Source: Escherichia coli phage vB_EcoS_Ace
Length of the DNA stretch: 64,000 bases
Reading direction: 5' to 3' (one strand)
Sequence record: MT833283.1
A program made the position numbers and the translations under genes. Positions 831 to 54,659 of this stretch are shown here, piece after piece. The notes under the pieces are model-generated. The model saw only the letters and a program-made list of their open reading frames with translations, made no database searches and was not told the origin of the DNA. How positions within the stretch are numbered: the stretch's first letter is position 1; each line of letters opens with the position of its first letter.

Positions 831-1409
831 TTATTCTCCAATTACTAAAACATCATGTTGAGAAGATACACCACACATATAATCTGCACAATGCGTAAAA
901 GCCAGATCAATGATTTCAAATATATCATCTACATCTAAATCTGTGGCTCGACAATACGCAATAGCTAAACCTGTACGAATACTGGAAAGTACATCTTCTC
1001 CTCCACAGCCTACACCGGCATATTCAACTTCTAGAATAGAAGCATTAGATTGGAAAATAAAGATTCTTCCTTTGTAGAGCATAATAAATTGTCCCAGATT
1101 AGGTTCAGCATATTTTTCATTTTTCTTTTCGCCAAAATCTTTCTGGTTAAACATATCACGTAATTTAGGTACTATTTCCGTGTATAAATATTTATCATCA
1201 GAAATATCTGCTAAACGTGGTGGTACAGTAAAGCTATGCTCTAGTAATTGTCCCATGTAGAAGGAACTAGTGTATCCGAAGTACAAATCATCAGAGATTT
1301 TGAATACTTTCGGATTTTTAACCAGCAGTTTCGTATAGCCATTAGAACCCATACGATCACCAGCTAAGTATACTTTATCTTTATATTTAAATGCTACTAT
1401 GGCTGTCAT
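831..1409 (-). CDS. Putative Ntn-hydrolase, HslV/proteasome beta-subunit-like peptidase
   Basis: 192 aa; Met-Thr N-terminus followed by AIVAFKYKDKVYLAGD, later GVGCGG; resembles HslV TTIV..AGDGQ and GSGG motifs; by-eye similarity only. Confidence 0.4.
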   Translation of the reverse strand: MTAIVAFKYKDKVYLAGDRMGSNGYTKLLVKNPKVFKISDDLYFGYTSSFYMGQLLEHSFTVPPRLADISDDKYLYTEIVPKLRDMFNQKDFGEKKNEKYAEPNLGQFIMLYKGRIFIFQSNASILEVEYAGVGCGGEDVLSSIRTGLAIAYCRATDLDVDDIFEIIDLAFTHCADYMCGVSSQHDVLVIGE

Positions 1410-1507: not shown

Positions 1508-1861
1508 TTAGATTATAATCAAGATTATTAGGGCGTATGTCAGATAATGCAGTAACTGATCAAATCCTAAAGCTATCCAAAACTTAGCATCGCTTATAGC
1601 GTATTTACAGCGTTGTGCTTTCCAATAATCTATAATAAAGTGTAGAATTAATTCCATAATAGCTAAAGCTATAGACATTCCTGGTGATGTGAATAGGATT
1701 AGAATTGCAAATGTTAATCCAGCATGTACTAGCGAATGGGTTAATAATGGAAGTTTCCACCCTATTTTATGCGTCTTTCTTAGCATATATGGTGTTTGGA
1801 GTGGATAATCGGCCATAAAATGTTTTAGAAATAATATGACAAATAATAGTATAATTAACAT
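1508..1861 (-). CDS. Hypothetical integral membrane protein
   Basis: 117 aa, at least three strongly hydrophobic segments (LIILLFVILFL, LTFAILILF, ALIILIII). Confidence 0.5.
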   Translation of the reverse strand: MLIILLFVILFLKHFMADYPLQTPYMLRKTHKIGWKLPLLTHSLVHAGLTFAILILFTSPGMSIALAIMELILHFIIDYWKAQRCKYAISDAKFWIALGFDQLLHYLTYALIILIII

Positions 1862-10243: not shown

Positions 10244-10272
10244 TGATTTATAAATTTGAGAGGAGAAAACGA

Positions 10273-10491
10273 ATGGCAAAAGTACCACAAGAATTTACGG
10301 ATGGAATTAAGGCAGATCTAGATGTAATGCTAATGGCCCAATGGGAGTCTGGCTTCCGAGATGGAATTGATTGTTGTGTGGCCGTGCTCGATACTATTAG
10401 TTGGCAGCTTATTCAATCTGGAAATGATGCAGAAGGCAACCTTCTAGCTAACCTTTCTAAACAAATTAGGGAAATGAAATGCGCAGATTAA
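10273..10491 (+). CDS. Hypothetical small protein (72 aa)
   Basis: ATG at 10273 preceded by GAGAGGAG RBS; track ORF begins upstream at a TTG inside the promoter leader; stop overlaps the Sir2-like start. Confidence 0.5.
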   Translation: MAKVPQEFTDGIKADLDVMLMAQWESGFRDGIDCCVAVLDTISWQLIQSGNDAEGNLLANLSKQIREMKCAD

Positions 10492-11321
10492 TTATTGTTA
10501 GTGGTGCAGGTTTGAGTGTAGATAGTGGTGTTCGTGCTTTCCGTACTGATACTGCTAGTGGGAAATCCTTGTGGGATGAGTACGATCTAGAGGAAGTATG
10601 TAGCTTGCCTAACTTTGAAGCTGGCTTCCGTCGCTTCTGTGGTGAAGATGATCCTAACTACTTCAGTGCTCGTTTCCCTGGCATTGATGAAGATGGTAAC
10701 GATCTGTATCTCAAGACTCATGAGTTCTACAACATGCGTCGTCAGGAATTACAGACTGTTGAGCCTAACATTGCCCATCTGCGAATTGCAGAATGGTTCC
10801 AGCGTTATGATGCGGATAGCGTGAAGAACTTCACTACTAACGTTGATGACCTTCTGGAACGTGCTGGTATCCCTCGTGATGAAATCATTCACGCTCACGG
10901 GTACTTGAAAGAGGTGATCTATCGTCAGGGTCGCAATCAAATCATCGAAGATGTTGGGTATACTGCGATTGCCCCTGAAGATTACGAATGGGTAAAACCA
11001 AACGTAACATTCTTTGGTGAGACGGCTCCGTGGTATATGGGTCAGATTAACCTGTTTGATACGCTTACTAGCAATGATATGGTTATTGTGGTAGGTTGTA
11101 GCAACCAAGTGATTGACTTCAACTGGGAACTATTCCCTGCTGTATGTCGTGGAACTAAGATGATGGTTGTTAACCCTCAAGTTCGCTATGATGAACAGCT
11201 TGAATATGAGAAACGTGGTGTTACTGTATGGCGGGCTGGAGCTGCCGAAGTTTTTGGTAACAAGCATTTCATTGGTCAAGTAGAAGCCTTTATGGAAGGA
11301 ACTATTTATGTCGCATCCTAA
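10479..11321 (+). CDS. Sir2 (sirtuin)-family NAD-dependent protein
   Basis: 280 aa; GAGLSVDSGVRAFR (sirtuin GAGIS..SGIP.FR), HAHG (HG catalytic His), TFFGE (FGE motif), VVGCS; no Zn-ribbon cysteines seen. Confidence 0.65.
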   Translation: MRRLIIVSGAGLSVDSGVRAFRTDTASGKSLWDEYDLEEVCSLPNFEAGFRRFCGEDDPNYFSARFPGIDEDGNDLYLKTHEFYNMRRQELQTVEPNIAHLRIAEWFQRYDADSVKNFTTNVDDLLERAGIPRDEIIHAHGYLKEVIYRQGRNQIIEDVGYTAIAPEDYEWVKPNVTFFGETAPWYMGQINLFDTLTSNDMVIVVGCSNQVIDFNWELFPAVCRGTKMMVVNPQVRYDEQLEYEKRGVTVWRAGAAEVFGNKHFIGQVEAFMEGTIYVAS

Positions 11322-11523
11322 TAAGGGTAAAATGGGAGATATGGGATCAGACCCCCGATTTTACAAATCGCCTAAAAGACACCCTGATGATATAATTGTA
11401 TGGCCAGATAAAACATGGTGCTATCGTGAAGAGTTGTGGGAAATGGATTATATGTCAGATGATTTCTGTGTAATCTATATCGACACACCGGAACATAAAG
11501 CGTTCCTAGAGGAGAACGAATGA
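11308..11523 (+). CDS. Hypothetical protein (71 aa)
   Basis: ORF overlapping the end of the Sir2-like gene; Trp/Asp-rich, no recognisable motif. Confidence 0.4.
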   Translation: MSHPNKGKMGDMGSDPRFYKSPKRHPDDIIVWPDKTWCYREELWEMDYMSDDFCVIYIDTPEHKAFLEENE

Positions 11524-11705
11524 TAAAGAAGATTTTTAAGGGTATCTGGAAAGGTCTAGTATGGTTTGTCAACCTAATCGGTATGATTACCATTTATTCT
11601 CTGTTCCTATCTGTTATGTGGGGTAAAGGTGAATTGAAGGTTCCGGTTCCTTTTACTGAGGAAGTTAAAGTCTGGACGTGGGATGCTACTGGTGGAAATA
11701 AGTAA
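11520..11705 (+). CDS. Hypothetical small membrane protein (61 aa)
   Basis: One hydrophobic segment (LVWFVNLIGMITIYSLFLSVMW); overlaps neighbours. Confidence 0.4.
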   Translation: MIKKIFKGIWKGLVWFVNLIGMITIYSLFLSVMWGKGELKVPVPFTEEVKVWTWDATGGNK

Positions 11706-13086: not shown

Positions 13087-13125
13087 TGCTCAAAGACACT
13101 GATAGCACCTTCGGAAAAATTTTAC

Positions 13126-13154
13126 TTGCAGGATGCTCAAAATCTTGATATAAT
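13126..13154 (+). promoter_or_regulatory. Early promoter (TTGCAG-N17-TATAAT) with conserved leader
   Basis: TATAAT followed by ATTTATATTGAATTGAGAGAC leader resembling other early leaders; -35 is weaker. Confidence 0.45.
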
Positions 13155-13647
13155 ATTTATATTGAATTGAGAGACATTAGTAAAAATTGATTTTGCTAAT
13201 TTTTCTTGTTTACAATCCGCAATACGGAACAGTTAGGCTGCCCCATTAAGGGTTGTTTTAACTATTACTAGTGTTTATACTGCATTAGTTAATTATCAAT
13301 TAAGTGATCTGCGTACCCTGAATTCGGAAAGGTAAATCCAAACCGTGCATATTTAGCTCGTTATATAGGCAGAGCTTTATATGGGGGTGCGAACGAAAAG
13401 AGCAGCGAATGGTGACACGTCCAGTAGCCACCTACCAATAGGATAGTGAGGGCAATCAGAATAGGCTTAGCGGCCAATGACCTAGGTTCTGATCTGGATA
13501 AGAGTTAAGAGAGCGCAGCACTGAGGTATGATAACTTATTCATACTGCTTGATGATTAATGTTTGTGTAAATGGTAGTAATAGTTGTTCTATTCTTTTGA
13601 ATAGTCCTAAAGAAAGATATCCGAATAACCAACATAGGAGTATTGTT

Positions 13648-16437
13648 GTGTTCTCAATCCTACAAGGTCACGCAGGATTTTCCAGAGATAAAGCCACTGG
13701 CATCTGGAAAGAGATCAAAGTGGAAGATTACACCTTTGCAAAGCGATTCTCTAAAGAGCATCCAGAAGGTAAACCAGCTTCCATGCCCTTCAAATTTGAT
13801 GTACTTGAAGAACTTGACCCGCAAAACCTTGCTGAAATGTTACCTATCATGCGTCGTCTTACCAAAGACCCGCATATTGTAGCTATTCGTGGTAAATGTC
13901 TAGCTCCAAAAGATAATGTGCGTCGTACCAGAGGAAACTTTAACGTATCCAATCCTAGTCATATTATCGCTATGGACGTGGATGGTATTGTAGATACTGG
14001 TGGCTATGACAAGTTTAATCTTGTTGGCATGGCACGTCATATTATTAAGATGTTGAATAGTATTAGTGAGGATATGTTTCCTCTTGATGCAGGGTTTATT
14101 GCTCATGCATCGTCTTCGGCTGGATTAAAACCAGGTATCCGAATGCACTTAATGCTAGAATCTAATGTCAAGGTAACGCAGGGGCAATTAAAATTCTTAT
14201 TTACATCCATCAATGACAGTAGTAAGCAAAAGTATGGCTTTGATATTGCTGACTTAGCTTATTATTCTTCTGTTCAGCTTCACTATTTCGCAGATCCCTT
14301 ATTTGATGATGGTATAGTCGATCCGTTTAAAGCGGAGAATAAACCACGTCTTGTGTATGTTAAGGGTTCGAAAGTGAATCTACCCAATAACCTAGTTGAC
14401 TTTGAAACAACTAGAGGTGAGTTTAAAGAAGAATTCTACTCCTTACTTGACCAAATTAAAGGCAAGAAGGCTGCATCTGATAAAGTGGAAGAAACCATCA
14501 GCGAACTAGAAGAAGCTGAGGATGGGGTGTACCTGCGTATTATCCCAAAACTTTATCACAGAGCGTTAGAAGATGGTGTTGACTTTACGTGGTTAGAACG
14601 TGAGATTAAACCAGCTTTATCTGAATATATTGCAACTAAAGATAATAGTCGTAATATTCAAGATTACTTTAATAACGGTCGTAAGCAGGCTCTAAAAGCC
14701 TTTGTGAATAACTCCAAACGTGAGATTCCACCCAACTTAAAAGGTGTACCACTAAAGCGTCTGGACACAGATTCACCGCCAGAAGTTCCATACTTGAAGA
14801 TTAACATTGTACCCCCAAAAGGACATTTAACATTTGTTAAGGCAAGTCTTGGTACAGGTAAAACCACAGCAGTAACTAAGTGGCTAGATGCAGGTGTTCT
14901 TCCAGGAAACTTTATTGCAATCACGAATACTAGGGCACTTGTATCTTCAAACGCGAAGAAATTCGGTGCTGGTCAGTATGATAAGTCAGTTGATATGCTG
15001 AACTTCAAACGTGGTGCTATTGATCGTATGTCTTCAACTATTCACTCTATCCATAAGTTCAAGAGCTTTGTGGGTCAGATTGATACGATCTTTATTGATG
15101 AATGTGACGCAGTAATGAATGATCTGTTATTCGCCCCGGTTGTTAAAAACCGTCGTGAATGTATTCAGGTTCTTCGCGATATTCTTATTACTGCAAAAAC
15201 GGTTATCTTATCTGATGGTGATATCAGTGCAGAAACGATTGAAGCCTATGGTTCTTTGATTGATTTTGATAAACCGGTCGCGTTCTATAATCATCACCGT
15301 AAAATGCTGGCAAAAGCTCATGCATATGAGTTCCCTGATGAATCCAGTATTTGGGTCGCACTCCAGACTTCACTAGAGATGGGGGAGAAATCAATCCTAG
15401 TATCTGACTGTGGGCCAGATGAACTGAATGAAAAGGGGATGGCGTTACGTCGTAACACTGGTGCGTTAGTTAAAGAAATTCACTCAAACTCTACGTCTGA
15501 TGTAGATATCCGACGTATTCTGGATTACACTACTAATGAGCTAATTGATCAACAGATTGATTGTTTGTTATGTAGTCCATCTGTAACGAGTGGCGTTGAC
15601 TTTAACTATTTTGATAACGTATTTGTTATCACTAGAACCTCAAACCAAGCGCCAAACATGCGTTTTCAAGCAATCAGGCGCGACCGTGGTGCTCAGAACA
15701 TTTATTATTTTATTGATAAATCTACGAGTGGATTTTCTGCGGGTTCCGAGCAATATAATATTGACGAAGGTTGGATTGAGTTAGCCCAACAACTGTACGC
15801 ACGTCGTCGTGAGCTGGAATCTAGAAACTATACTAGTACTTTGCGTTATTATCTGCTTGATCAGGGTGCAACTATCGATATTTTCAGCGAAAGCTGGGGA
15901 ACTATCGAAGGTGCAGGAAAAGAGTATACAGAAGAGCGAATCAAAGCTATTTTGCACTCAACTCCTGAATATTGTGCACCACGTCATGCAGATGCCTATG
16001 AAGCCAAGTTACTTCTGGTTCGCTATTATCATCTGGATTCTATTAAAGATGTAACAGTGGAACACGTTGAACAGTATATCAAGGATAAACCAAACGATAG
16101 AGCTGCATTCTTCCATAAGATGCACGACATGTTCTGGGAAGATATTAAAAAGTGTTCAAACGTAACAATCAAACCGTTTATCGAAGCTCTTAAGAATAAG
16201 AAGAAGGATTTCTTCCTTAAGACAGGTCAGAGCGCTAACCCAAAATATGCTCGTATGTATCTTGGCATGATGGGTATCGGTAAAGATCTGGATACGGAAA
16301 AGATTGTGGACTGGTACAGAACTTACTGTAAGATCGAATGTATGCCGATTCCAGTTAAGTTTATGACAGATGAAGAACGTCAGATGCATGAGGAAGCTCT
16401 TGCTGAATTGGGGGCTAGAAATGACAGCGAAGAATAA
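13648..16437 (+). CDS. Putative replication origin-binding / helicase-like ATPase
   Basis: Walker A GTGKTT and DExD-type IFIDECD; probable GTG start at 13648 with AGGAG RBS 7 nt upstream (track ORF begins at 13528 without RBS). Confidence 0.6.
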   Translation: MFSILQGHAGFSRDKATGIWKEIKVEDYTFAKRFSKEHPEGKPASMPFKFDVLEELDPQNLAEMLPIMRRLTKDPHIVAIRGKCLAPKDNVRRTRGNFNVSNPSHIIAMDVDGIVDTGGYDKFNLVGMARHIIKMLNSISEDMFPLDAGFIAHASSSAGLKPGIRMHLMLESNVKVTQGQLKFLFTSINDSSKQKYGFDIADLAYYSSVQLHYFADPLFDDGIVDPFKAENKPRLVYVKGSKVNLPNNLVDFETTRGEFKEEFYSLLDQIKGKKAASDKVEETISELEEAEDGVYLRIIPKLYHRALEDGVDFTWLEREIKPALSEYIATKDNSRNIQDYFNNGRKQALKAFVNNSKREIPPNLKGVPLKRLDTDSPPEVPYLKINIVPPKGHLTFVKASLGTGKTTAVTKWLDAGVLPGNFIAITNTRALVSSNAKKFGAGQYDKSVDMLNFKRGAIDRMSSTIHSIHKFKSFVGQIDTIFIDECDAVMNDLLFAPVVKNRRECIQVLRDILITAKTVILSDGDISAETIEAYGSLIDFDKPVAFYNHHRKMLAKAHAYEFPDESSIWVALQTSLEMGEKSILVSDCGPDELNEKGMALRRNTGALVKEIHSNSTSDVDIRRILDYTTNELIDQQIDCLLCSPSVTSGVDFNYFDNVFVITRTSNQAPNMRFQAIRRDRGAQNIYYFIDKSTSGFSAGSEQYNIDEGWIELAQQLYARRRELESRNYTSTLRYYLLDQGATIDIFSESWGTIEGAGKEYTEERIKAILHSTPEYCAPRHADAYEAKLLLVRYYHLDSIKDVTVEHVEQYIKDKPNDRAAFFHKMHDMFWEDIKKCSNVTIKPFIEALKNKKKDFFLKTGQSANPKYARMYLGMMGIGKDLDTEKIVDWYRTYCKIECMPIPVKFMTDEERQMHEEALAELGARNDSEE

Positions 16438-16654
16438 AAAGTGGGAAACAAGGAAGTTTCCCGTAAAAGAACGTAAAACTTCTGTTTACGATACTGCGGA
16501 GAAACTATGTAGGGTTGTACCACCTCGTCTCGCTGGCATCCCTAACGTCTCCATATGGTTACTTAAACAACGGAAGACTCGTGTGTCTCTTCGTATTGGC
16601 TTTGAGTTAGATAAAGTCTATGCTGAACTTGCTTCTTTGCTCAAAGAATCGTAA
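16421..16654 (+). CDS. Hypothetical small protein (77 aa)
   Basis: ATG at 16421 overlapping the end of the preceding gene; basic, KK-rich. Confidence 0.35.
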   Translation: MTAKNKKWETRKFPVKERKTSVYDTAEKLCRVVPPRLAGIPNVSIWLLKQRKTRVSLRIGFELDKVYAELASLLKES

Positions 16655-16662
16655 AAATTTAT

Positions 16663-16691
16663 TTGCTTTTAGGAAAATTTTTCTGTATAAT
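16663..16691 (+). promoter_or_regulatory. Phage T5 PN25-type early promoter
   Basis: Recalled PN25 sequence (pQE-vector T5 promoter) TTTATTTGCTTT.AGGAAAATTTTTCTGTATAATAGATTCATAAATTTGAGAGAGGAG matches except one position in the spacer. Confidence 0.85.
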
Positions 16692-16722
16692 AGATTCATA
16701 AATTTGAGAGAGGAGTTTAAAT

Positions 16723-17427
16723 ATGGCTGGTTCTCGTAGAAAGAAACTTATCCATGAAATCCCTGATGAAACCTTTAAAAAGGTTATTGAACATCTGGAG
16801 AATGGTGGTACTAAGAAAGCAGCATGTGAAATGCTCGGCGTTTCTTCTAACCCAACTATGGAACGAATGATCGAGGAATGGAGAGATCGTCAGGTTCAAG
16901 TTGCGGAAATGAAAAAGAAGAAGCGCGGAACACTGATTGAGGGGGTTGAGCTTGCAAACGTAATTGAACAGTATCTTTCTGGTGATTCTTTTGAAGAAAT
17001 TGCTGATCGTAACTATCGTTCTGTAGCGATGATTAAATCTGTTCTGGAACGTTATGGTGCTCTGCTTCGTTTAAACGATATTGTTGATCCATTGAATCCT
17101 CCGTTGATTCCTGATGATGCAATGGCAGAAGAATTTGAAGTTGGTGAACTTGTTTGGGTTCCTGGCTATCAGTGTATTGGTGAAATCAAGAAAGCAATGA
17201 CTAACCCAGTTGGCTGCTACCGTGTTTGGTTGTTATCAGAAGGTAAACAACAGAACGTTCACTATATGCACTACGAATTAGCTTCTGTTAAACATCTGGA
17301 AAAGCTGGGAGTTGATGTTAAGGCTCTGGGCTTTAAATGGAGTCGTGAAGAAGTTATCACGTTGGTTAATGAAGCTGTTAAAGCTGCCTTGAAACTCGAT
17401 AAAGAGAAAGGAAAACGCCGTGAGTAA
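16723..17427 (+). CDS. Putative DNA-binding regulator with two HTH-like motifs
   Basis: 234 aa; GGTKKAACEMLGVSSNPTMERMIEEW and SFEEIADRNYRSVAMIKSVLERYG resemble HTH units; expressed from the PN25-type promoter. Confidence 0.5.
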   Translation: MAGSRRKKLIHEIPDETFKKVIEHLENGGTKKAACEMLGVSSNPTMERMIEEWRDRQVQVAEMKKKKRGTLIEGVELANVIEQYLSGDSFEEIADRNYRSVAMIKSVLERYGALLRLNDIVDPLNPPLIPDDAMAEEFEVGELVWVPGYQCIGEIKKAMTNPVGCYRVWLLSEGKQQNVHYMHYELASVKHLEKLGVDVKALGFKWSREEVITLVNEAVKAALKLDKEKGKRRE

Positions 17428-17683
17428 ACTAACTGATCTGTTAAAAGCTGGAGACGTAAAATATCTCCAGCGAGATAGTTGGGTTAACTGGGATGTTCGT
17501 AGCTGCTACTCTACCATTATAAAGGTAGATGTTGATAATAATGATATTATCGAATTTACTTGGTGGCCTGATGTAGGTGGGTATACTAATCTCTCTTTTG
17601 AGAAAGCATCGTGGAAAACCACTGAGCTGACTCTAGAAGAAGCTCTGGCCGACGATTGGGAGATCGTTGAACTAGATATGTAG
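17420..17683 (+). CDS. Hypothetical protein (87 aa)
   Basis: ORF overlapping the preceding stop by 8 nt. Confidence 0.4.
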   Translation: MSKLTDLLKAGDVKYLQRDSWVNWDVRSCYSTIIKVDVDNNDIIEFTWWPDVGGYTNLSFEKASWKTTELTLEEALADDWEIVELDM

Positions 17684-17703
17684 CAGTTACTGAAAAATTT
17701 CAG

Positions 17704-17732
17704 TTGCTTAATCCTGTAATTCTTGATATAAT
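17704..17732 (+). promoter_or_regulatory. Early promoter TTGCTT-N17-TATAAT
   Basis: Hexamers and spacing read directly. Confidence 0.55.
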
Positions 17733-17790
17733 ATTCTCATAGTTTGAAAAAACTATTCTGTTTAATTCTTAATTAAGGAAATCGAAAAAT

Positions 17791-18201
17791 ATGACTACTC
17801 CAACTCAGTGGACTGATGAACTGTTCGAAAAAATGTCTTCCGACTACGTTGCTCGTATGGAGCAAATCCCAGAAGATGAGCGTCCGGGCGTTAGCATGGA
17901 AATTGTTAGCGAAATTGCTCAGGAAAATGGTGTAACTCCGAACGGTTTTCGTATGAAGCTGACCAAAGCAGGTCTGTATATCAAGAAAGCTGCTGGCTCT
18001 ACTTCTAAATCAAGCGCATCTACTGGAGAAAAAGCTTCTGGTGGTTCTCGTACTTCCAAAGCTCAGGCTCACTCCGATCTTCGCTCTGCATTCTCTGATG
18101 CTGGCTTAGCACCGGACTTCCTGGACGACGCAATCATCGACAAGCTGACCGGTAAAGCAGCTGCTCATCTAGCAGAAGCTATCCGAGCTATCACTAAGTA
18201 A
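17791..18201 (+). CDS. Hypothetical protein with one copy of the HTH-like module found four times in 21118-21885
   Basis: 136 aa; IAQENGVTPNGFRMKLTKAGLYIK parallels the repeat unit of 21118-21885; host-like codon usage (CTG, CGT, GGT). Confidence 0.5.
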   Translation: MTTPTQWTDELFEKMSSDYVARMEQIPEDERPGVSMEIVSEIAQENGVTPNGFRMKLTKAGLYIKKAAGSTSKSSASTGEKASGGSRTSKAQAHSDLRSAFSDAGLAPDFLDDAIIDKLTGKAAAHLAEAIRAITK

Positions 18202-18237
18202 TTCTTAGATAAATCCACCAACACAAGGAATACAGTT

Positions 18238-18534
18238 ATGAATAAAGCTGAAATTATTGCTCAATGCGAAAAATTTGGTGAGTTTTATCTTCATTACGAA
18301 AAACTTCGTCAGAAAGGAACCACGTACCTTCAGGGTACGATGGGATTTGATCCAGCTCAGGATAAATACCTGGCTGAGCGTATTAAACGTGAGCGCATCC
18401 GTAAGCCGAAAGAAGATGAAATCCTCGTTTTCTCTCGTACTAACGATAGCTTCCGTTTCATTCCTGTTGCGAAAGTTCGCCGTGTGACGAGCCTCCAGTC
18501 AGAGTTAGATCGTGCTTCTCCAGTAGGCCGATAA
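18238..18534 (+). CDS. Hypothetical protein (98 aa)
   Basis: AAGGAA RBS, basic C-terminal half. Confidence 0.45.
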   Translation: MNKAEIIAQCEKFGEFYLHYEKLRQKGTTYLQGTMGFDPAQDKYLAERIKRERIRKPKEDEILVFSRTNDSFRFIPVAKVRRVTSLQSELDRASPVGR

Positions 18535-18544: not shown

Positions 18545-18566
18545 AGCCCCTATATGGGGCTTTTTG
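18545..18566 (+). terminator. Rho-independent terminator
   Basis: AGCCCC-TATAT-GGGGCT hairpin followed by TTTTTG. Confidence 0.55.
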
Positions 18567-18584: not shown

Positions 18585-18893
18585 ATGAGCGATCAGGTAA
18601 ATCAAAACTATGAAGGACACGTTGACGACCAGTCCATCATGCTTTGGGAGAAGGAGGGAGAACAAGTAAGACTAACCGTATCTGAATTTCGTGGGAATCT
18701 ATACATGGGAATTCGTTACTGGCTCCAAGATATTACTGGAGAGTGGTTTCCAACGAAATCCGGCTTCTCTTTTCCTTATACCCTAGAAACTACGTCACAG
18801 CTATTCTACGCTTTTACGCAAATCCTCAGTGAATCCGAGGTCTTGCATGAAGTACAGAAACGAGCTGAAGAACTCAAAGCCAAGAATGCCTAG
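18585..18893 (+). CDS. Hypothetical protein (102 aa)
   Basis: ORF with ATG start; no recognisable motif. Confidence 0.45.
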   Translation: MSDQVNQNYEGHVDDQSIMLWEKEGEQVRLTVSEFRGNLYMGIRYWLQDITGEWFPTKSGFSFPYTLETTSQLFYAFTQILSESEVLHEVQKRAEELKAKNA

Positions 18894-20143: not shown

Positions 20144-20193
20144 TTCGTAACCCTTTGCTACCCGTTTACCATGTCGGAATTATAAAGTGGTTA

Positions 20194-20222
20194 TTGACAT
20201 TTTCGCCGCTTAGGTATATACT
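20194..20222 (+). promoter_or_regulatory. Promoter TTGACA-N17-TATACT between the two ligase ORFs
   Basis: Consensus -35 and near-consensus -10 read directly. Confidence 0.45.
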
Positions 20223-20285
20223 ATTATCATTCAGTTGAGGGATAGAAAGTTATGGCGAGGGTAAGCAAAGTTAGTTAAAATTGTA

Positions 20286-20314
20286 GTTGCTAAATGCTTA
20301 AATACTTGCTATAA
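20286..20314 (+). promoter_or_regulatory. Early promoter TTGCTA-N17-TATAAT with ATAAATTGATAAGGAAG leader
   Basis: Hexamers and spacing read directly; immediately upstream of the second ligase ORF. Confidence 0.5.
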
Positions 20315-20345
20315 TATTTATATAAATTGATAAGGAAGAAATTTG

Positions 20346-21967: not shown

Positions 21968-23440
21968 ATGACCTTGTTTAACGTGCAAGCTGTAGTGTTG
22001 AAGATGCTTCTCGCTTCTGAACAGAAGCAAGTAGCATTGGAAACATTCTCAAAACTGCATAAAGATCATTTTAATGACGCTTTCTCCTCAATTTACCAAG
22101 CCGTCCAGAATTATTATAAGAAATATAACGCAATGCCGTCCATTGACGCACTGATGCTTGAGGCCAATAGGAACGCCCGCCTTTCTCAAGCTCTTGTCGT
22201 CTTAGCTAACACTCAAATTCCAGAAGTGAGCATGGAACAGGCACTTGAAGTCCTAGAAGCTGAATATACGCAGGATCTATTCCTGAAACTTCTAGAAACA
22301 GACGTGCTTCAAGATTTAACAATGCTGGATCAGGGAGAAATTCTCAACCGAGTTGCCTCCCTTCACTTAAAATTAGAAGAGAAAGTAACGAATACTGGAA
22401 AGGTATTCAACGCAGACACAATGCGTATTTTCCAGAGAGAAGAAGATACCAAACTGAACTTGATCGCTCTTGGTATTTGTAATGAGTTCGACGCTCAAAT
22501 TGGTTTAGCTCGCACAGAAACGTTACTGCTTGGTGGTTGGCGTGGTACTGGTAAATCCATTATCTGTTCAAACATACAGGTTCAGCAATATTTGAATGGA
22601 GACATTGCTCCATATTTCTCAATTGAGATGAAAGAGCACGAAGTGTTTAGACGTAATCTGGCTATGTTAGCTGGAGTATCTGCATTAGCAATGCGTAATA
22701 ACACTCTTGAAGGTGCTGCTCTGTTGAGATTAGCCAGAACTAGGGCTAGGATGTTTAATGGTGGTGAAGAGCTTTTCGATAACTTCGTTAAGCAATACAC
22801 TATGGCTAAAATGAGTGACTTCTATGATATGGAAAGTAAACTCCTTGAAGGCTATGAGCTTCACACTCCTATGATCATCGTTTACGATCCTGAACTGTCT
22901 ATTACGACGGTTGATGTAGAATTAAATAAACTAGTTGCTAAGTATGGTGATAAGGTTACTGTAGCTCTTCTAGACTATATTAACCAAACAAGACTTCCAG
23001 ATTCAAAGACCATTGATATGTATGACTGGAAAGAACAGATGGTTGTTAGTTCATCTTTCAAATCTATCTGCCAGAAACATAACGTGGCTGGTGTTGCCCC
23101 TTACCAGATTGACCAAGATGGTAGAACGCGTATGTCTAAAGGGATTCTTGATTCCGCAGATATGGCTGCTAATCTTAATGCTGCAAAAGCTGATAACGGT
23201 CAAGGTGCTATTATGTTTGACTTCGTTAAGACTCGTTCCTCTGATAGTGTGAAGTTTATGCCTAAGATGAACTGGGAAACTCTGCGAATGGATAACACTA
23301 CCAACCTAGCAATGGAAGATATTGCGCAAATGGAAGCTGAGTTCGTTATTCCTATTGAAAAGGATAAACCAGCTCAACCTAAACGTGCTAAGAAAGACAA
23401 AGCTGAAAATTCAACAGGTGAACAGGCCAGCGATATATGA
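21968..23440 (+). CDS. Putative DnaB-like replicative helicase
   Basis: Walker A GWRGTGKS, later VALLDYINQ (DnaB H2-like); start set at the ATG after the terminator, and is uncertain. Confidence 0.55.
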   Translation: MTLFNVQAVVLKMLLASEQKQVALETFSKLHKDHFNDAFSSIYQAVQNYYKKYNAMPSIDALMLEANRNARLSQALVVLANTQIPEVSMEQALEVLEAEYTQDLFLKLLETDVLQDLTMLDQGEILNRVASLHLKLEEKVTNTGKVFNADTMRIFQREEDTKLNLIALGICNEFDAQIGLARTETLLLGGWRGTGKSIICSNIQVQQYLNGDIAPYFSIEMKEHEVFRRNLAMLAGVSALAMRNNTLEGAALLRLARTRARMFNGGEELFDNFVKQYTMAKMSDFYDMESKLLEGYELHTPMIIVYDPELSITTVDVELNKLVAKYGDKVTVALLDYINQTRLPDSKTIDMYDWKEQMVVSSSFKSICQKHNVAGVAPYQIDQDGRTRMSKGILDSADMAANLNAAKADNGQGAIMFDFVKTRSSDSVKFMPKMNWETLRMDNTTNLAMEDIAQMEAEFVIPIEKDKPAQPKRAKKDKAENSTGEQASDI

Positions 23441-27447: not shown

Positions 27448-28796
27448 AGGTTGTTATATCTAATAAAGCCTATTTCAAGCCCGATGATGAACTCTGGGAT
27501 TATTGTAGTAAACAAACCACTTACCACATCGAGACAATGACTAGTAAATACCCTATTATGTATAAGAATAGTGGTGTTGTTGCTAAAGAGATTAAGTGGA
27601 TTCCCATTACGCGTCTGGATTTGCTAGATGCTAAGGGAGTAAAATACGAATTAGTTGATAAACGCACGTTAGCTCCGGTAAAAATACCAGAACCTCAGTT
27701 CAAGCTGCGTGAAGAAGATCAACTCCCTATATATGAAGAGTGTGATGATACTTGTATTATCAATGGTAAGCCCGGATTTGGTAAAACTATCCTAGCTTTA
27801 GCTCTTGCATATAAGTTTGGCCAGAAAACTCTGGTAATCTGCACCAACACATCCATACGGGAAATGTGGGCTGCAGAAGTTCGTAAATGGTTTGGATTCG
27901 AGCCTGGTATTATAGGTTCTGGAAAGTATAATATTGATCCACCAATCGTGGTCAGTAATATACAAACCGTGAATAAACATGCGAATAATCTTTCTAAGGT
28001 GTTCGGTACTGTTATAGTTGATGAAGTTCACCACTGTGTGGCTACAACTTTCACTAATTTCTTAGAGATCTCGTGTGCTCGCTACAAGATTGGTTTATCG
28101 GGTACGTTAAAACGTAAAGATGGCCTACAAGTTATGTTCAAAGATTTCTTTGGATATAAGATCTTTAGTCCGCCTGTCAATAACACTGTTCCACCCACAA
28201 TCCATAGGTACTCCGTGCCTGTTGAGTTATCAGGAAACCAGAACGTACCGTGGGCATTACGTGCTAACGATGTGTATAACCATCCTGAATATCGAGAGAC
28301 TATTATAAATCTAGCTCATTTATATGTGTCTATGGGGCATAAGGTTCTCTTTGTAAGTGATAGAACAGAACTAATTCAAACAATACTAGAAGCTCTCGCA
28401 CAACGTGGTGTTACAACCTATGAGATTATAGGTGCAACTCCTTTGGATGATCGATTGAGAATCCAGAAAGATGTAGCGGAGGGCGGACCTTGTGTACTTG
28501 CAGCAGCTCAGAGTATCTTCTCAGAAGGTATTTCTCTTAACGAGCTATCTTGTTTAATAATGGGGAGTCTCATTAATAATGAATCTCTCATAGAACAGTT
28601 AGCAGGCCGCGTTCAACGTATTGTTGACGGAAAGCTAGATCCGATTGTTGTAGATTTAATTATGAAAGGAGGTACTGGTTTAAGACAGGCTTCTGGACGT
28701 ATGGCCGTGTATCGCAATAATGCGTGGAAAACTATTACTATGACTCCGGAGAAAGCAGTACAATTAGCTAAAATTGCATTTGGCAACTGCTCATAA
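27444..28796 (+). CDS. SF2 DNA helicase (T5 D10-like)
   Basis: 450 aa; Walker A GKPGFGKT, DEVH box (VIVDEVHH), later helicase motifs. Confidence 0.75.
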   Translation: MKVVISNKAYFKPDDELWDYCSKQTTYHIETMTSKYPIMYKNSGVVAKEIKWIPITRLDLLDAKGVKYELVDKRTLAPVKIPEPQFKLREEDQLPIYEECDDTCIINGKPGFGKTILALALAYKFGQKTLVICTNTSIREMWAAEVRKWFGFEPGIIGSGKYNIDPPIVVSNIQTVNKHANNLSKVFGTVIVDEVHHCVATTFTNFLEISCARYKIGLSGTLKRKDGLQVMFKDFFGYKIFSPPVNNTVPPTIHRYSVPVELSGNQNVPWALRANDVYNHPEYRETIINLAHLYVSMGHKVLFVSDRTELIQTILEALAQRGVTTYEIIGATPLDDRLRIQKDVAEGGPCVLAAAQSIFSEGISLNELSCLIMGSLINNESLIEQLAGRVQRIVDGKLDPIVVDLIMKGGTGLRQASGRMAVYRNNAWKTITMTPEKAVQLAKIAFGNCS

Positions 28797-28808
28797 TTAT
28801 TGTATAAT
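28780..28808 (+). promoter_or_regulatory. Early promoter (TTGGCA-N17-TATAAT) with ATAAATTTGAGAGAGAAAG leader
   Basis: Read directly; followed by a short hairpin and no long ORF before the next promoter. Confidence 0.45.
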
Positions 28809-28879
28809 ATACACATAAATTTGAGAGAGAAAGTTTCGGATTGATAAGAAAGTCCGAAGCAGAAAAATAAAAATTGTAC

Positions 28880-28909
28880 TTGTCAAATCCTCCCGATTTA
28901 ATGTATAAT
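28880..28909 (+). promoter_or_regulatory. Early promoter (TTGTCA..TATAAT) with ATAAATTGATGAGAGAC leader
   Basis: Read directly; precedes the ATG at 28937. Confidence 0.5.
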
Positions 28910-28936
28910 ATATACATAAATTGATGAGAGACAAAA

Positions 28937-34970: not shown

Positions 34971-36735
34971 ACTTAGTGAGTAGTTGTTTTACTAATTCCT
35001 TGAGTTCATCAATTTCTTGCCTCTGTTGCTCAACAATCCCATTAAGTTCGTTAACAGCGCTAACTAGAAGAGCAGAAACACCACCATAACTAACACCAAG
35101 ATAACCGTCTTGGCTTACTTGGTATACAGCTTCAGGTAATACTTTCTGGAGATCCTGAGCAATAATACCTGCTTCCATAGAATAATCTTTGCTTTCAGGG
35201 TCATCAATATTAGTTCGTTTCTGGTAAGTATAGCCGCATAACAGCTTAACCTTACTTAGAGAATCTTCGATCTTAGTAAGATTAGACTTAGTTCTAATAT
35301 CAGAAACGTTAATCCAGTTAGATGCTCTAGCTCCCCCATCACTATGGAAATAGAATCTGGAAGCACCTGTCATTATATCCAGTTCAGAAGTGCCATCCCC
35401 CCATAGGATACCATCAACGTTACAAGCGTATCCCTTTCCAGGAATAGTTACTTTGGCAATACCTACAGCTACATCAGTAGTGTTACCATCTACGCTAACA
35501 GCTACAGGCCTATAAGACCAACTAGATAGAGCACCCCCATTAATTTTACAACCATAACCATACGACCAATCCCCTCCTTTATAGTCAGGCAGGTATACTG
35601 AGTCGAAAATTACTTGCTGACGTGTGCCAAGAGATAAGTTATTACGGGCAGTATTAACATCTGTACCTCCTGTACCTCCCGAAGCAATAGGTAGAGGTTT
35701 TCTAATAGCAGCAGACTTATCGTAGACACCCCAATCTCCTGCAGCATATACAAAGAAATAGGTATCTTTATCCGGAGCCCAAAGCATTGATTGTTCCCCC
35801 GCTCTATCTACCTGGTCTACTAAGAGATTCTCTCTTGCCTTAGCCACTGTAGTAGCTCCTGTCCCTCCATTTGTAATAGGAACGGTAGACTGACCGTTAA
35901 ATTGTTTTTGCCACGGCAACCAGTTACCAGTACCGTTTAGTATAGTAAGCCATGAGCTTCCAGATTTTCCTACCGCCTTCAATATACCGTATTGGGCGAA
36001 GCCATCAATATCTGTACTATGACAGTGAAAATTAAAAGTCCACCAATCCTCGTCTACTGGAGGACCAAAGGTAATTAGGTTACCTGAAGAGTAGTAACCA
36101 CTTTGCCCGGTAGCACCAATAAAACCAAGAACATTACTGTTAGGAGGAATAGGTACAGCAGTAGCCCCTACAGGAACATCTAGATTTTTTCTTGCTGTTT
36201 TAGCATCAGAAGCCCCTGTTCCACCGAACTGCACTTTCATGGCCTGGACGGCAGCGGTAGAACTATTGATTAATCCAAAGTCTCCGCTATTATAAACGAA
36301 TAAAGAATATTTTCCATCAGGAGACGTAATAAAGGTACCATTATCCTGCTGTCTTAAACGATCTATTTGTAAAGCTGTTTTTGCCTCTAATAAGGTGCTA
36401 GCACCTGTACCACCCTGAGCAATAGTAATAGCCTTAGTCAGTGCGTTTAATTCTGTAATATCGTTATTAGCACCTTTTGCCGCCTTCGTACCTAGGTTAG
36501 TGTTAATACCGCCAATAGCAGTATTGATATTACCTATTGATTCGTTAATACTATTAATATATGCGTCAGTAGCAGTCTTATCAGTAGTATATTTTGTAAG
36601 CTGTAGATATTTAGAGGTTAGTACAACAGCACCAGCCTCCCCATCAACAGAGAAAACACCAGCAACCGCCGCATCTCTGTTAACAACAACATAGGGGGCC
36701 ATAGCCCCACTTTTTGGCATTAATTGTCTAGACAT
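34969..36735 (-). CDS. L-shaped tail fibre protein B-like, with C-terminal intramolecular chaperone domain
   Basis: 588 aa; four GGTGA.T...AR.NL repeats; C-terminal block (…LLCGYTYQKRTNIDD…GIIAQDL…) alignable with the C-terminus of the next ORF. Confidence 0.6.
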   Translation of the reverse strand: MSRQLMPKSGAMAPYVVVNRDAAVAGVFSVDGEAGAVVLTSKYLQLTKYTTDKTATDAYINSINESIGNINTAIGGINTNLGTKAAKGANNDITELNALTKAITIAQGGTGASTLLEAKTALQIDRLRQQDNGTFITSPDGKYSLFVYNSGDFGLINSSTAAVQAMKVQFGGTGASDAKTARKNLDVPVGATAVPIPPNSNVLGFIGATGQSGYYSSGNLITFGPPVDEDWWTFNFHCHSTDIDGFAQYGILKAVGKSGSSWLTILNGTGNWLPWQKQFNGQSTVPITNGGTGATTVAKARENLLVDQVDRAGEQSMLWAPDKDTYFFVYAAGDWGVYDKSAAIRKPLPIASGGTGGTDVNTARNNLSLGTRQQVIFDSVYLPDYKGGDWSYGYGCKINGGALSSWSYRPVAVSVDGNTTDVAVGIAKVTIPGKGYACNVDGILWGDGTSELDIMTGASRFYFHSDGGARASNWINVSDIRTKSNLTKIEDSLSKVKLLCGYTYQKRTNIDDPESKDYSMEAGIIAQDLQKVLPEAVYQVSQDGYLGVSYGGVSALLVSAVNELNGIVEQQRQEIDELKELVKQLLTK

Positions 36736-36782
36736 TTTATTACCTTTATAGGGGCTTTCATAAGCCCCCTATTATACTTTTT

Positions 36783-45180: not shown

Positions 45181-45791
45181 AGACTTTCCCTCAAGGAAAG
45201 TGAAATACCAGTATATGTACCATTACTATTTAACGTAGAGCCAAAACTGTCTCCGTTCATTAATTTAGTTCTAAACAGAATACCATTAAATACCGGTTTC
45301 TCACTACCCGTAGTAGTAATGAATAGATCAGGATAAACACTTATATTCCAAGTATTTCCTGCTGTGTTGATAGAAGTGATTTTATACACTTTTGGATGGT
45401 TGGACAATTTAAATAAATCGCCTGGTTTAGGCAGTCCACGAAGTGTACCTTTAGTGTCCATAATAACTGTTGAACCTTTTTGTCCAGCAGGAATATTTAC
45501 AGCACTAGTATCACCACGAACTCGGAAAGCTTCATATTGTGGTAATAACACATCAATATAGCTACCTGTTCTTTTATAATCTAGAATGAATGAGTCTAAT
45601 TTAGCAAATTCATCTGGGAATAATTCTGGATAAGAGATATTAATACCCCAATATTGAGCAGACACCTTAACCTCCCTAACTTTACCATTAGGTAATTCAT
45701 CACGAATCATAGGGTCATTGTCTACTAAGTTAACGCTTTCAAAACCTAACCCTGATAGCTCTGGGTTCGTGTATGGGTCTGGTAGTCTCAT
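45177..45791 (-). CDS. Distal tail protein (Dit, pb9-like)
   Basis: 204 aa, between tape-measure and hub genes; AAGAGGAG RBS. Confidence 0.55.
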   Translation of the reverse strand: MRLPDPYTNPELSGLGFESVNLVDNDPMIRDELPNGKVREVKVSAQYWGINISYPELFPDEFAKLDSFILDYKRTGSYIDVLLPQYEAFRVRGDTSAVNIPAGQKGSTVIMDTKGTLRGLPKPGDLFKLSNHPKVYKITSINTAGNTWNISVYPDLFITTTGSEKPVFNGILFRTKLMNGDSFGSTLNSNGTYTGISLSLRESL

Positions 45792-45817
45792 AGTTAATTT
45801 CTCCTCTTAATAACAAT

Positions 45818-45846
45818 ATTATAATAGGATTGGAAAATTTTATCAA
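45818..45846 (-). promoter_or_regulatory. Consensus-like sigma70 promoter (TTGATA-N17-TATAAT) inside the tail gene block
   Basis: Reverse strand TTGATA, 17-nt spacer, TATAAT, then AAGAGGAG RBS and the Dit ATG. Confidence 0.45.
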
Positions 45847-45868
45847 GAAATTTTTATTTTTCCATAAA

Positions 45869-45897
45869 GAAAAGGAGGACTTTATGTCCTCCTCCAG
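45869..45897 (-). terminator. Hairpin (terminator/attenuator candidate) downstream of the tape-measure gene
   Basis: GGAGGAC-ATAAA-GTCCTCC stem-loop followed by a T-rich run on the minus strand. Confidence 0.45.
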
Positions 45898-45899
45898 TA

Positions 45900-49580: not shown

Positions 49581-49590
49581 TTATTTTTCC

Positions 49591-49625
49591 CAATAAAAAA
49601 GGCTCTGGGCAAATCACCCAGAGCC
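49591..49625 (-). terminator. Rho-independent terminator immediately upstream of the tape-measure start
   Basis: GGCTCTGGG-CAAATCAC-CCAGAGCC hairpin followed (minus strand) by TTTTTTATTGGGAAAAATAAATG. Confidence 0.55.
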
Positions 49626-49660
49626 AAGCCTCATCGTGGAACGCCCATTGGAGGAAACTT

Positions 49661-50029
49661 TTACTGAGCTCGAGATCTAGCATGCGGTTTAATGTTCGGA
49701 GTGCGACCATTTTGTTTACCATGCTTCTCGGCTCTCTTACGAGCTGCATCTACAGCTTTCGAATCAAATATATTGATGATGTGTAGAACAAACTCTTTCT
49801 CTATAGGATCAGTAATCCCATAGATATCAAATAAAACACCTAGTGCACTTTTGTCTTTTCCTATAAAAATAGGAAAGTCACCTGGTATGAAACAGTCAAT
49901 AAGACTGTTATAAATATTCATACTAGTAGATACAATAGGTGGAAAATCTTCGAGTTCAACAGGCATTGCCTTAGGATCAGGTTCAATACCTAGCGACTCA
50001 CAAAGCATTAAATATTGTTGTTTTGTCAT
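49661..50029 (-). CDS. Hypothetical protein, possible tail assembly chaperone (122 aa)
   Basis: Position between tail-tube-side genes and the tape measure; basic C-terminus. Confidence 0.4.
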   Translation of the reverse strand: MTKQQYLMLCESLGIEPDPKAMPVELEDFPPIVSTSMNIYNSLIDCFIPGDFPIFIGKDKSALGVLFDIYGITDPIEKEFVLHIINIFDSKAVDAARKRAEKHGKQNGRTPNIKPHARSRAQ

Positions 50030-50090
50030 TTTAGATGCTGATGATTTAATGCATTTATCAGCAAAATCGGCAACAGCATCTAGTAACTGC

Positions 50091-51391: not shown

Positions 51392-51395
51392 TTAA

Positions 51396-52805: not shown

Positions 52806-52831
52806 TTATTTATATTCTCCTAATCTGTAAC

Positions 52832-53317: not shown

Positions 53318-53320
53318 TTA

Positions 53321-54600: not shown

Positions 54601-54610
54601 TTATTTTTCC

Positions 54611-54640
54611 CAATAAAAAAGGAGAGCCGAAGCTCTCCTT
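54611..54640 (-). terminator. Rho-independent terminator downstream of the major capsid gene
   Basis: AAGGAGAGC-CGAA-GCTCTCCTT hairpin followed (minus strand) by TTTTTTATTGGGAAAAATAAATG. Confidence 0.6.
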
Positions 54641-54659
54641 ATCGGCTGAAAAGCCTGTA

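What the first reader, a model, noticed from the sequence alone, without database searches (positions are those of the whole stretch)
16651..16725. Near-identical copy of the T5 PN25 promoter anchors the window as a T5-like phage
The sequence TTTATTTGCTTTTAGGAAAATTTTTCTGTATAATAGATTCATAAATTTGAGAGAGGAG matches the classical T5 PN25 promoter (as used in expression vectors) except for one spacer position. Together with the 855-aa polymerase, 291-aa FEN, split ligase and 458-aa capsid precursor this identifies a T5 relative. The dual tail-fibre genes indicate it is not T5 itself.
Basis: partly seen in the sequence, partly recalled or inferred. Interest (0 to 1): 0.45.

Follow-up and report, generated by a model that had tools for sequence, protein, structure and literature searches.

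The report
T5 PN25 promoter copy, Epseptimavirus phage
This is the natural counterpart of the well-known strong T5 promoter PN25, in its usual place in front of gene D2 in a T5-like phage of the genus Epseptimavirus; it is a correct identification of an ordinary, already known element.

Summary
The quoted 58-mer lies at window 16658-16715 and occurs once. It differs from the published PN25 sequence at one base, C->T at 16670, which is position -28 in the spacer. The T5 RefSeq record annotates 'promoter P-N 25' directly upstream of D2, and the window has the orthologous element directly upstream of its D2 orthologue (72/75 identical).

The window is collinear with T5 46.3-111.5 kb. Polymerase, FEN, split ligase and capsid gene lengths all match. 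Identity to T5 is only about 85% over 81% of the window. The closest records (96-98%) are Epseptimavirus phages, so 'T5 relative, not T5' is right, but the genus is Epseptimavirus, not Tequintavirus.

Across 29 T5-like genomes, positions -18..+18 and -46..-32 are almost invariant (pi 0.002-0.005, against 0.19 at D2 third codon positions). The upstream half of the spacer is hypervariable. The invariant 33-mer occurs once in each of 26 T5-like viral contigs and in no representative bacterial genome.

The most likely mechanism is initiation by host sigma-70 RNA polymerase at A16698, transcribing D2 through to the terminator at 18545-18561. The element is already known, and the exact allele is in GenBank phages. 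Interest is low.

The parts
16421..16654 (+). Upstream small ORF (77 aa, orthologue of T5.110). Its stop codon TAA (16652-16654) is the first three bases of the conserved promoter block.
   Evidence: Annotated CDS in GreteKellenberger and 118970_sal2 at the same place; PHROG 5291, function unknown.
16652..16662 (+). A/T-rich upstream block TAAAAATTTAT (-46..-36), the proximal UP-element-like part. It has one A fewer than T5.
   Evidence: Invariant in 28-29 of 29 T5-like loci. Homology to genomes with a different upstream gene begins exactly here. UP element of N25 described in PMC12464699 sec. 12.
16663..16668 (+). -35 hexamer TTGCTT
   Evidence: Same as N25 (-35 TTGctt). TTGC is invariant; the fifth base is T or A across relatives.
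16669..16685 (+). 17-bp spacer. T at 16670 (-28) is the one difference from PN25 inside the quoted 58-mer. -31..-19 is hypervariable among relatives and -18..-13 is invariant.
16686..16691 (+). -10 hexamer TATAAT
   Evidence: Invariant in 29/29; N25 -10 TATAAT.
16692..16697 (+). 6-bp discriminator AGATTC with G at -5
   Evidence: Invariant in 29/29. G-5 is said to bind sigma region 1.2 in N25.
16698..16722 (+). Inferred transcription start (A16698, +1) and 25-nt leader / initial transcribed sequence ATAAATTTGAGAGAGGAGTTTAAAT. The purine tract 16706-16715 holds the Shine-Dalgarno GGAG (16712-16715).
   Evidence: Start inferred from identity to N25, which is primed with ApU. +1..+18 invariant in 29/29. 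Leader RNA not more structured than shuffles (z +0.58).
16723..17427 (+). D2 orthologue, 234 aa, the first gene served by the promoter
   Evidence: Orthologous to T5.111 'D2'; PHROG 3611; only a weak HTH_28 match in Pfam.
17420..17683 (+). T5.112 orthologue, 87 aa, overlapping the end of D2
   Evidence: PHROG 643 'transcriptional regulator'.
17688..17758 (+). Orthologue of T5 promoter PN26, an internal promoter ahead of D3
   Evidence: 67/75 identical to T5 64068-64142, annotated 'promoter P-N 26'.
17791..18534 (+). D3 orthologue (17791-18201) and T5.114 orthologue (18238-18534), the rest of the inferred transcription unit
18545..18561 (+). First terminator-like hairpin downstream (AGCCCCTATATGGGGCT + T-run), the inferred end of the PN25 transcript
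   Evidence: It maps onto the T5 feature 'putative rho-independent terminator' 64929-64948 by the offset of the alignment.

Best explanation
Window 16652-16722 is the orthologue of bacteriophage T5 promoter PN25 in a T5-like phage of the genus Epseptimavirus (Demerecviridae, Markadamsvirinae). After the second-step transfer of the phage DNA, host RNA polymerase carrying sigma-70 binds the A/T-rich upstream block, the -35 TTGCTT, the 17-bp A/T-rich spacer and the consensus -10 TATAAT. It starts at A16698. It transcribes a 25-nt unstructured purine-rich leader that carries the ribosome-binding site, then D2, the T5.112 orthologue, D3 and the T5.114 orthologue, as far as the hairpin terminator at 18545-18561. 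PN26 at 17688-17758 adds transcription part-way along. No terminator-like site lies upstream between 13078 and the promoter, so PN25 also works as an internal booster on read-through from the promoter at 13106-13180. What is shown: sequence identity, synteny and conservation. What is inferred from the T5 literature: the start site, sigma-70 dependence, early timing and transcript extent.
For: The 58-mer is present once and none are expected by chance. It matches published PN25 at 57/58 and the annotated T5 feature at 72/75, upstream of D2 in both genomes. The promoter block is 97% identical to T5 (69/71) while the flanking ORFs are 86%. In 29 T5-like loci found through the D2 protein, not through the promoter, nucleotide diversity is 0.002 for -18..+18 and 0.005 for -46..-32. 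It is 0.012, 0.039 and 0.19 at D2 codon positions 2, 1 and 3. The longest invariant run in the 1-kb alignment is 16683-16705, followed directly by 16706-16715. In three loci an HNH endonuclease gene replaces the sequence upstream of -46 and the promoter is left intact. A more distant D2 relative (71% aa, L033) keeps TTGCAA/17 bp/TATAAT and an ATAAATTG start. The architecture matches the published description of N25: -35 TTGctt, 17-bp spacer, -10 TATAAT, 6-bp discriminator with G-5 and an UP element. All T5 gene classes are transcribed by the sigma-70 holoenzyme. The invariant 33-mer occurs once in each of 26 T5-like IMG/VR contigs and in none of 185,579 species-representative genomes. For genus: 96-98% identity to Epseptimavirus records against 85% to T5.
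Against: No transcription data exist for this sequence, so the start site and activity are inferred from T5. The -35 hexamer matches TTGACA at only 3 of 6 positions, and the generic sigma-70 scan did not list the site. Three small differences from T5 lie in or next to functional parts (-28 in the spacer, one A fewer in the A-run, G for A at -47) and their effect is untested. The Epseptimavirus records that I inspected do not annotate the promoter. Some of the conservation of +9..+18 may come from its role as ribosome-binding site rather than from transcription.
Confidence: 0.93

Rival explanations
1. The promoter is laboratory vector sequence (pQE / pZ type constructs carry PN25) that entered the assembly as a contaminant or chimera.
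For: PN25 is widely used in engineered constructs.
Against: The element is embedded in uninterrupted phage sequence. The 1401 bases around it are 99.6% identical to phage GreteKellenberger and collinear with T5 on both sides. It drives the native D2 gene with the native leader. It carries natural-allele differences from the vector sequence, and the same allele occurs in three GenBank phages. No lac or tet operator is present.
Confidence: 0.01
2. The conserved block is kept mainly as an mRNA element (leader and ribosome-binding site for D2 on read-through transcripts from the upstream promoter at 13106-13180), and promoter activity is weak or lost in this lineage.
For: No terminator-like site lies on the + strand between 13078 and the promoter, so read-through is plausible. 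+9..+18 is a Shine-Dalgarno tract. The -35 is 3/6.
Against: The untranscribed part (-18..-1 and -46..-32) is as invariant as the leader, which an mRNA-only role does not explain. [quoted passage not shown]
Confidence: 0.04
3. The window is phage T5 itself or another member of the genus Tequintavirus.
For: Full collinearity with T5, and orthologues of all the named T5 promoters.
Against: Identity to T5 is only about 85% over 81% of the window. The L-shaped fibre, receptor-binding protein and five homing-endonuclease loci differ. The best hits at 96-98% are all classified as Epseptimavirus.
Confidence: 0.03

Closest known systems
Bacteriophage T5 promoter PN25 (also written N25 or T5N25), NC_005859 63043-63117
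   Same: Same position upstream of D2. Identical -35 TTGCTT, 17-bp spacer length, -10 TATAAT, discriminator AGATTC and initial transcribed sequence ATAAATTTGAGAGAGGAG. 72/75 identical.
   Different: T for C at -28, one A fewer in the upstream A-run, G for A at -47, and one extra T between the Shine-Dalgarno tract and the ATG. The host genome is a different genus.
The same promoter allele in Epseptimavirus phages GreteKellenberger (MZ501072), SpoonbillGilly (PP925828) and vB_SalS-SIY1lw (PP105779)
   Same: 100% identical over the 161 bases 16600-16760 in SpoonbillGilly and SIY1lw, and over 111 bases in GreteKellenberger, with the same flanking genes.
   Different: Nothing in the element itself. 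Elsewhere the window is a mosaic and is at most about 98% identical to any one record. The promoter is not annotated in the GreteKellenberger record; I did not inspect the annotation of the other two.
Family of T5 sigma-70 promoters (PN26, PK28a, PK28b, P31A, P31B, PG25, PJ5 and unnamed ones)
   Same: Shared layout of A/T-rich upstream block, TTGCT-type -35, 17 bp and TATAAT, often with an ATAAATT(T/G)GAGAG start. The window holds orthologues of all those within its range.
   Different: PN25 has discriminator AGATTC (G at -5), whereas a published alignment reports ATATT in the discriminator of early promoters. The other promoters serve other genes and some are late (PJ5, PG25).
Engineered 'T5 promoter' of expression vectors (PN25/04-type lac-operator derivatives)
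   Same: Derived from PN25 and keeps its hexamers.
   Different: The vectors carry lac operators in the spacer and/or downstream. The window has the natural spacer and leader and no operator.

Membership tests
T5 promoter PN25 (orthologue) | Sequence match to the reference PN25 | tested here: met
   57/58 to the published PN25/T5N25 sequences; 72/75 to T5 63043-63117.
T5 promoter PN25 (orthologue) | Position immediately upstream of gene D2, after the T5.110 orthologue | tested here: met
   T5 annotation; window ORFs; collinear alignment.
T5 promoter PN25 (orthologue) | -35 TTGCTT / 17-bp spacer / -10 TATAAT / 6-bp discriminator with G-5 | tested here: met
   Read directly from the sequence; matches the description in PMC12464699.
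T5 promoter PN25 (orthologue) | Native initial transcribed sequence ATAAATTTGAGAGAGGAG | tested here: met
   Identical, and invariant in 29/29 relatives.
T5 promoter PN25 (orthologue) | UP element upstream of -35 | tested here: inconclusive
   The proximal A-run is present but one A shorter. The distal part (-59..-47) is coding sequence, varies among relatives, and is replaced outright in three loci. Function not testable here.
T5 promoter PN25 (orthologue) | Initiation by E. coli sigma-70 holoenzyme at the A of ATAAAT | not testable with these tools
   Inferred from T5 work.
Genus Epseptimavirus | High nucleotide identity and coverage to classified members | tested here: met
   97.6% over 99% of 1-25000 to Epseptimavirus 118970sal2. 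98.3% over 99% of 25001-50000 to IrmaTschudi. 99.6% locally to GreteKellenberger, which is classified as Epseptimavirus. Only 64 kb was tested, not a whole genome.
Genus Tequintavirus (T5) | Closest relatives are Tequintavirus. The genus threshold of about 70% identity x coverage is from my own knowledge of ICTV practice. | tested here: not met
   81% aligned x 85% identity gives about 69% to T5 over the window, and about 200 records are much closer.
T5-like phages (Demerecviridae, Markadamsvirinae) | T5 gene order: replication module, split NAD ligase, pol, D15 FEN, tail and head modules | tested here: met
   Collinear HSPs with T5 46,330-111,537; equal gene lengths.
Two-gene (LtfA/LtfB) lateral tail fibre arrangement | Two adjacent fibre genes, each with a C-terminal intramolecular chaperone domain, next to an LtfC-like gene | tested here: met
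   Peptidase_S74 in the 588-aa ORF (E 2.6e-12) and the 1020-aa ORF (E 3.1e-6); LtfC domain in the 140-aa ORF; synteny with EscoHU1 'L-shaped tail fiber protein A/B'. Physical branching not testable.

The most novel reading that the evidence does not exclude
The upstream half of the PN25 spacer (-31..-19) is not just unconstrained. It exists in at least two allele classes between invariant blocks (TTGCTTTCAGGAAAAT-type against TTGCATAGTGCAAAAA-type, the latter forming a TTGCA-N3-TGCAA palindrome over the -35). These could be lineage-specific binding sites for a phage-encoded regulator that times early-gene shut-off. That would make natural PN25 alleles a handle on the unsolved early-to-late switch of T5-like phages.
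Probability: 0.05. Interest if true: 0.4.

Novelty: already known. Interest (0 to 1): 0.08.

Why it matters
It matters little as a discovery. PN25 is one of the best-studied bacterial promoters, and its orthologue with this exact allele is already in public Epseptimavirus genomes. Its practical value is as a landmark: the invariant 33-mer (-15..+18) occurred once in each of 26 T5-like viral contigs and in no representative bacterial genome, so it reliably marks T5-like phages and fixes the window's orientation and gene map. The natural variation also gives modest in-vivo support for published claims that the native N25 initial transcribed sequence is functionally optimised. All of +1..+18 and -18..-1 is invariant over genomes whose synonymous sites differ by about 19%, while the upstream spacer half drifts freely.

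Tried and rejected
- **Generic sigma-70 scan.** It does not list the site because the -35 is only 3/6. This shows the limit of consensus scans and is not evidence against the promoter.
- **Other copies in the window.** There is no second PN25, only partial matches that turned out to be other T5-family promoters.
- **Leader RNA fold.** No structure beyond shuffles (z +0.58), so a structured RNA element is rejected.
- **What D2 does.** Pfam gives only a sub-threshold HTH_28 match. The PDB sequence search found nothing at E < 0.1. PHROGs only repeats the label 'helicase'. The function stays unknown.
- **Original description.** Gentz & Bujard 1985 (PMC214212) is not held, so the temporal class of PN25 is inferred from its position in the early region and not quoted.
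- **Bacterial genomes.** A scan of representative genomes for the invariant core gave 0 matches, so there is no sign of prophage or vector copies.
- **tRNAs.** None in the window, as expected, because the window begins to the right of the T5 tRNA region.
- **Vector contamination and chance match.** Both considered and rejected on context and statistics.

Full report
**Observation.** The quoted 58-mer lies at window 16658-16715 on the + strand. It is unique in the window, and none are expected in dinucleotide-preserving shuffles.
- The PN25 sequence printed in primer IM103 of PMC4447248 is CATAAAAAATTTATTTGCTTTCAGGAAAATTTTTCTGTATAATAGATTCATAAATTTGAGAGAGGAGTT. The T5N25 template of bioRxiv 10.1101/042432 is the same over the shared part.
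- Both differ from the window's 58-mer at one base, C->T at 16670.
- The T5 RefSeq record (NC_005859) carries a regulatory feature 'promoter P-N 25' at 63043-63117, directly upstream of D2 (T5.111).
- Aligned to that feature the window matches 72/75. The extra differences outside the 58-mer are G for A at 16651, one A fewer in the A-run, and one extra T between GGAG and the ATG.

**Anatomy (read, numbered from the N25 start).**
- A/T-rich block TAAAAATTTAT: 16652-16662. Its first three bases are the stop codon of the upstream 77-aa ORF.
- -35 TTGCTT: 16663-16668.
- 17-bp spacer: 16669-16685.
- -10 TATAAT: 16686-16691.
- Discriminator AGATTC with G at -5: 16692-16697.
- +1 A: 16698. N25 is primed with ApU.
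- Leader ATAAATTTGAGAGAGGAGTTTAAAT: 16698-22, with GGAG at 16712-16715.
- ATG of a 234-aa ORF: 16723.

This is the architecture described for N25 in PMC12464699: TTGctt / 17 bp / TATAAT, a 6-bp discriminator with G-5, an UP element, and an A/T-rich spacer. The TG before the -10 is at -14/-13, one base off the canonical extended -10 position. The -35 matches TTGACA at only 3/6, so the generic scan did not list the site. The leader RNA is no more structured than shuffled sequence (z +0.58).

**Context.**
- The ORF downstream is the D2 orthologue (16723-17427). It is followed by the T5.112 orthologue (17420-17683), an orthologue of PN26 (17688-17758, 67/75), D3 (17791-18201) and the T5.114 orthologue (18238-18534).
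- The first terminator-like hairpin is at 18545-18561. It maps onto an annotated T5 terminator.
- Upstream lie the 'replication origin binding' gene (annotated start about 13648, ending 16437) and the small T5.110 orthologue.
- The scan found no terminator-like site on the + strand between 13078 and the promoter. PN25 therefore probably adds to read-through from the promoter at 13106-13180 (71/75 to the T5 feature 58999-59073).

**What the window is.**
- blastn against T5 40,001-121,750 gives collinear HSPs from T5 46,330 to 111,537. They cover 81% of the window at a mean of 85% identity.
- Polymerase (855 aa), D15 flap endonuclease (291 aa), ligA/ligB (323 + 259/260 aa) and the major head protein (458 aa) sit at orthologous offsets with the same lengths as in T5.
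- The closest records are not Tequintavirus:
  - 99.6% to GreteKellenberger over 16000-17400
  - 97.6% over 99% of 1-25000 to 118970_sal2
  - 98.3% over 99% of 25001-50000 to IrmaTschudi
  - 97-98.7% over 45001-64000 to SpoonbillGilly and others
- GreteKellenberger, 118970_sal2 and EscoHU1 are classified as Epseptimavirus.
- The hit-identity distribution is bimodal. About 200 records are at 95-99% and about 260 are at 80-90%; T5 falls in the second group.
- No single record reaches 99% over a whole 19-25 kb segment, so the window is a mosaic member of that genus.
- T5 has one 1396-aa ltf gene. The window has a 1020-aa and a 588-aa gene, each with a C-terminal Peptidase_S74 domain, plus an LtfC-like gene. 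They are syntenic with the EscoHU1 genes annotated LtfA and LtfB. That region does not align with T5 (34971-39544).

**Conservation.** I collected D2 relatives from IMG/VR through the protein, not through the promoter. I then aligned 300 nt upstream plus the gene for the 28 T5-like loci and the window.

| Segment | Nucleotide diversity (pi) |
|---|---|
| -18..+18 | 0.002 |
| -46..-32 | 0.005 |
| D2 codon position 2 | 0.012 |
| D2 codon position 1 | 0.039 |
| D2 codon position 3 | 0.19 |
| -31..-19 (upstream half of spacer) | 0.25 |

- The longest invariant run in the 1-kb alignment is 16683-16705, followed directly by 16706-16715. The two are separated only by a GA-repeat expansion in two loci.
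- The upstream half of the spacer falls into at least two allele classes (TTGCTTTCAGGAAAAT... and TTGCATAGTGCAAAAA...).
- Window versus T5 is 69/71 in the promoter block, against 86% in both flanking ORFs.
- In three loci an HNH endonuclease gene lies immediately upstream. Homology to the window starts at about -46, at the TAA that ends the upstream ORF in the window. One search shows the same break, with hits starting at query base 53. The conserved module is therefore -46..+25, and the distal UP region is not conserved as sequence.
- A 71%-identical D2 relative (L033) keeps TTGCAA / 17 bp / TATAAT and an ATAAATTG start.
- The invariant 33-mer CTGTATAATAGATTCATAAATTTGAGAGAGGAG occurs exactly once in each of 26 IMG/VR contigs. 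All of them are contigs also found through D2. It occurs in none of the species-representative bacterial and archaeal genomes.

**Mechanism.**
[quoted passage not shown] It is rate-limited at escape, and its native initial transcribed sequence is described as optimised for escape (PMC12464699; PMC7059391).
- All of these sequence parts are identical in the window and invariant across relatives. The best explanation is therefore a functional sigma-70 promoter that starts at 16698 and serves the D2-to-T5.114 block.
- The start site, the timing (early, from its place in the D-gene region) and the transcript end are inferences.
- The -28 change lies in the hypervariable part of the spacer, so it is most likely neutral.

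**Rivals.**
- Vector contamination is excluded by the uninterrupted phage context, the native downstream gene, the natural-allele differences and the absence of operators.
- A purely mRNA-level role does not explain the invariance of -46..-32 and -18..-1.
- Membership of Tequintavirus is contradicted by the identity figures.

**Novelty.** The element, its position and this exact allele are already in public records. The allele is 100% identical over 161 bases in SpoonbillGilly and vB_SalS-SIY1lw, and over 111 bases in GreteKellenberger.

Noticed in passing
window 20174-20248 and 20267-20341 (+); also 17688-17758, 28761-28834, 28861-28929 (+), 45793-45866 and 52962-53036 (-): Every named T5 promoter within the window's range has an orthologue. 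PK28b and PK28a (between ligA and ligB) are 75/75 identical to T5, although the surrounding block is 93% identical. PG25 is 73/75, PJ5 72/75, P31A 69/75, PN26 67/75 and P31B 59/75. A strict TTG-N3 / 17 bp / TATAAT scan with an A/T-rich upstream block finds 12 sites against 0.8 in mononucleotide shuffles.
   Followed up: yes
window 45793-45866 (-): The PG25 orthologue ends in ATTAAGAGGAGAAATTAAC followed by ATG, one A shorter than T5's ATTAAAGAGGAGAAATTAAC. From memory, this resembles the synthetic 'RBSII' of pQE-type vectors; I did not check that against a vector sequence.
   Followed up: no
window junctions near 4416/4421, 16376/16417, 23437-23440, 49592-49600 and 58808/58842: Five T5 homing-type endonuclease genes (hegH, hegI, hegJ, T5.141, T5.154) are absent from the window. 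At each junction the only T5 sequence missing is the stretch that holds the endonuclease gene, and the alignment resumes with a 0-40 nt gap in the window.
   Followed up: partly
L009, L023, L028 (about 974-1432 in L009): Some relatives carry a 152-aa HNH-type endonuclease gene inserted between the T5.110 orthologue and PN25. It ends at about -46 of the promoter and leaves the promoter intact.
   Followed up: partly
window 831-1409 (-) and 1508-1861 (-): Two genes between RNase H and thymidylate synthase have no counterpart at that place in T5. One is a 192-aa proteasome/HslV-family peptidase homologue (Pfam PF00227, E 1e-9) and the other a 117-aa DUF3307 membrane protein. Both are annotated in Epseptimavirus 118970_sal2.
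   Followed up: partly
window 16723-17427 (+): The D2 orthologue is labelled 'helicase' in RefSeq and PHROG 3611. At 234 aa it shows no helicase domain, only a sub-threshold HTH_28 match at residues 20-54, and has no PDB sequence relative. The label looks unsupported.
   Followed up: partly
L008, L015, L017, L024-L026, L029 (promoter region about 1435-1455 of each locus): The alternative PN25 spacer allele TTGCATAGT(G/T)CAAAAAATTTC creates a TTGCA-N3-TGCAA palindrome over the -35 hexamer in most of these loci. The window allele has GAAAA-T-TTTTC instead. Significance unknown.
   Followed up: no
L014 and L018 (leader of PN25): The Shine-Dalgarno purine tract is expanded by one GA unit (GAGAGAGAGGAG). 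This is the only length variation inside the otherwise invariant +1..+18.
   Followed up: no
window 60764-63155: The receptor-binding protein gene (593 aa, 60747-62528, -) and the adjacent region do not align with T5 oad/llp at the nucleotide level, but the protein matches PHROG 4815 'receptor binding tail protein'. This may reflect a different receptor specificity from T5; that was not tested.
   Followed up: no
window 18585-18893 (+): The T5.115 orthologue (102 aa, annotated 'transcriptional regulator') matches the PC4 / p15 single-stranded-DNA-binding transcriptional coactivator domain (PF02229, E 1.5e-8).
   Followed up: no
window 10261-11692: The Sir2-like gene region is much more diverged from T5 than its surroundings (68% identity or unalignable). 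The window's 280-aa ORF (10479-11321) has a SIR2 domain.
   Followed up: no
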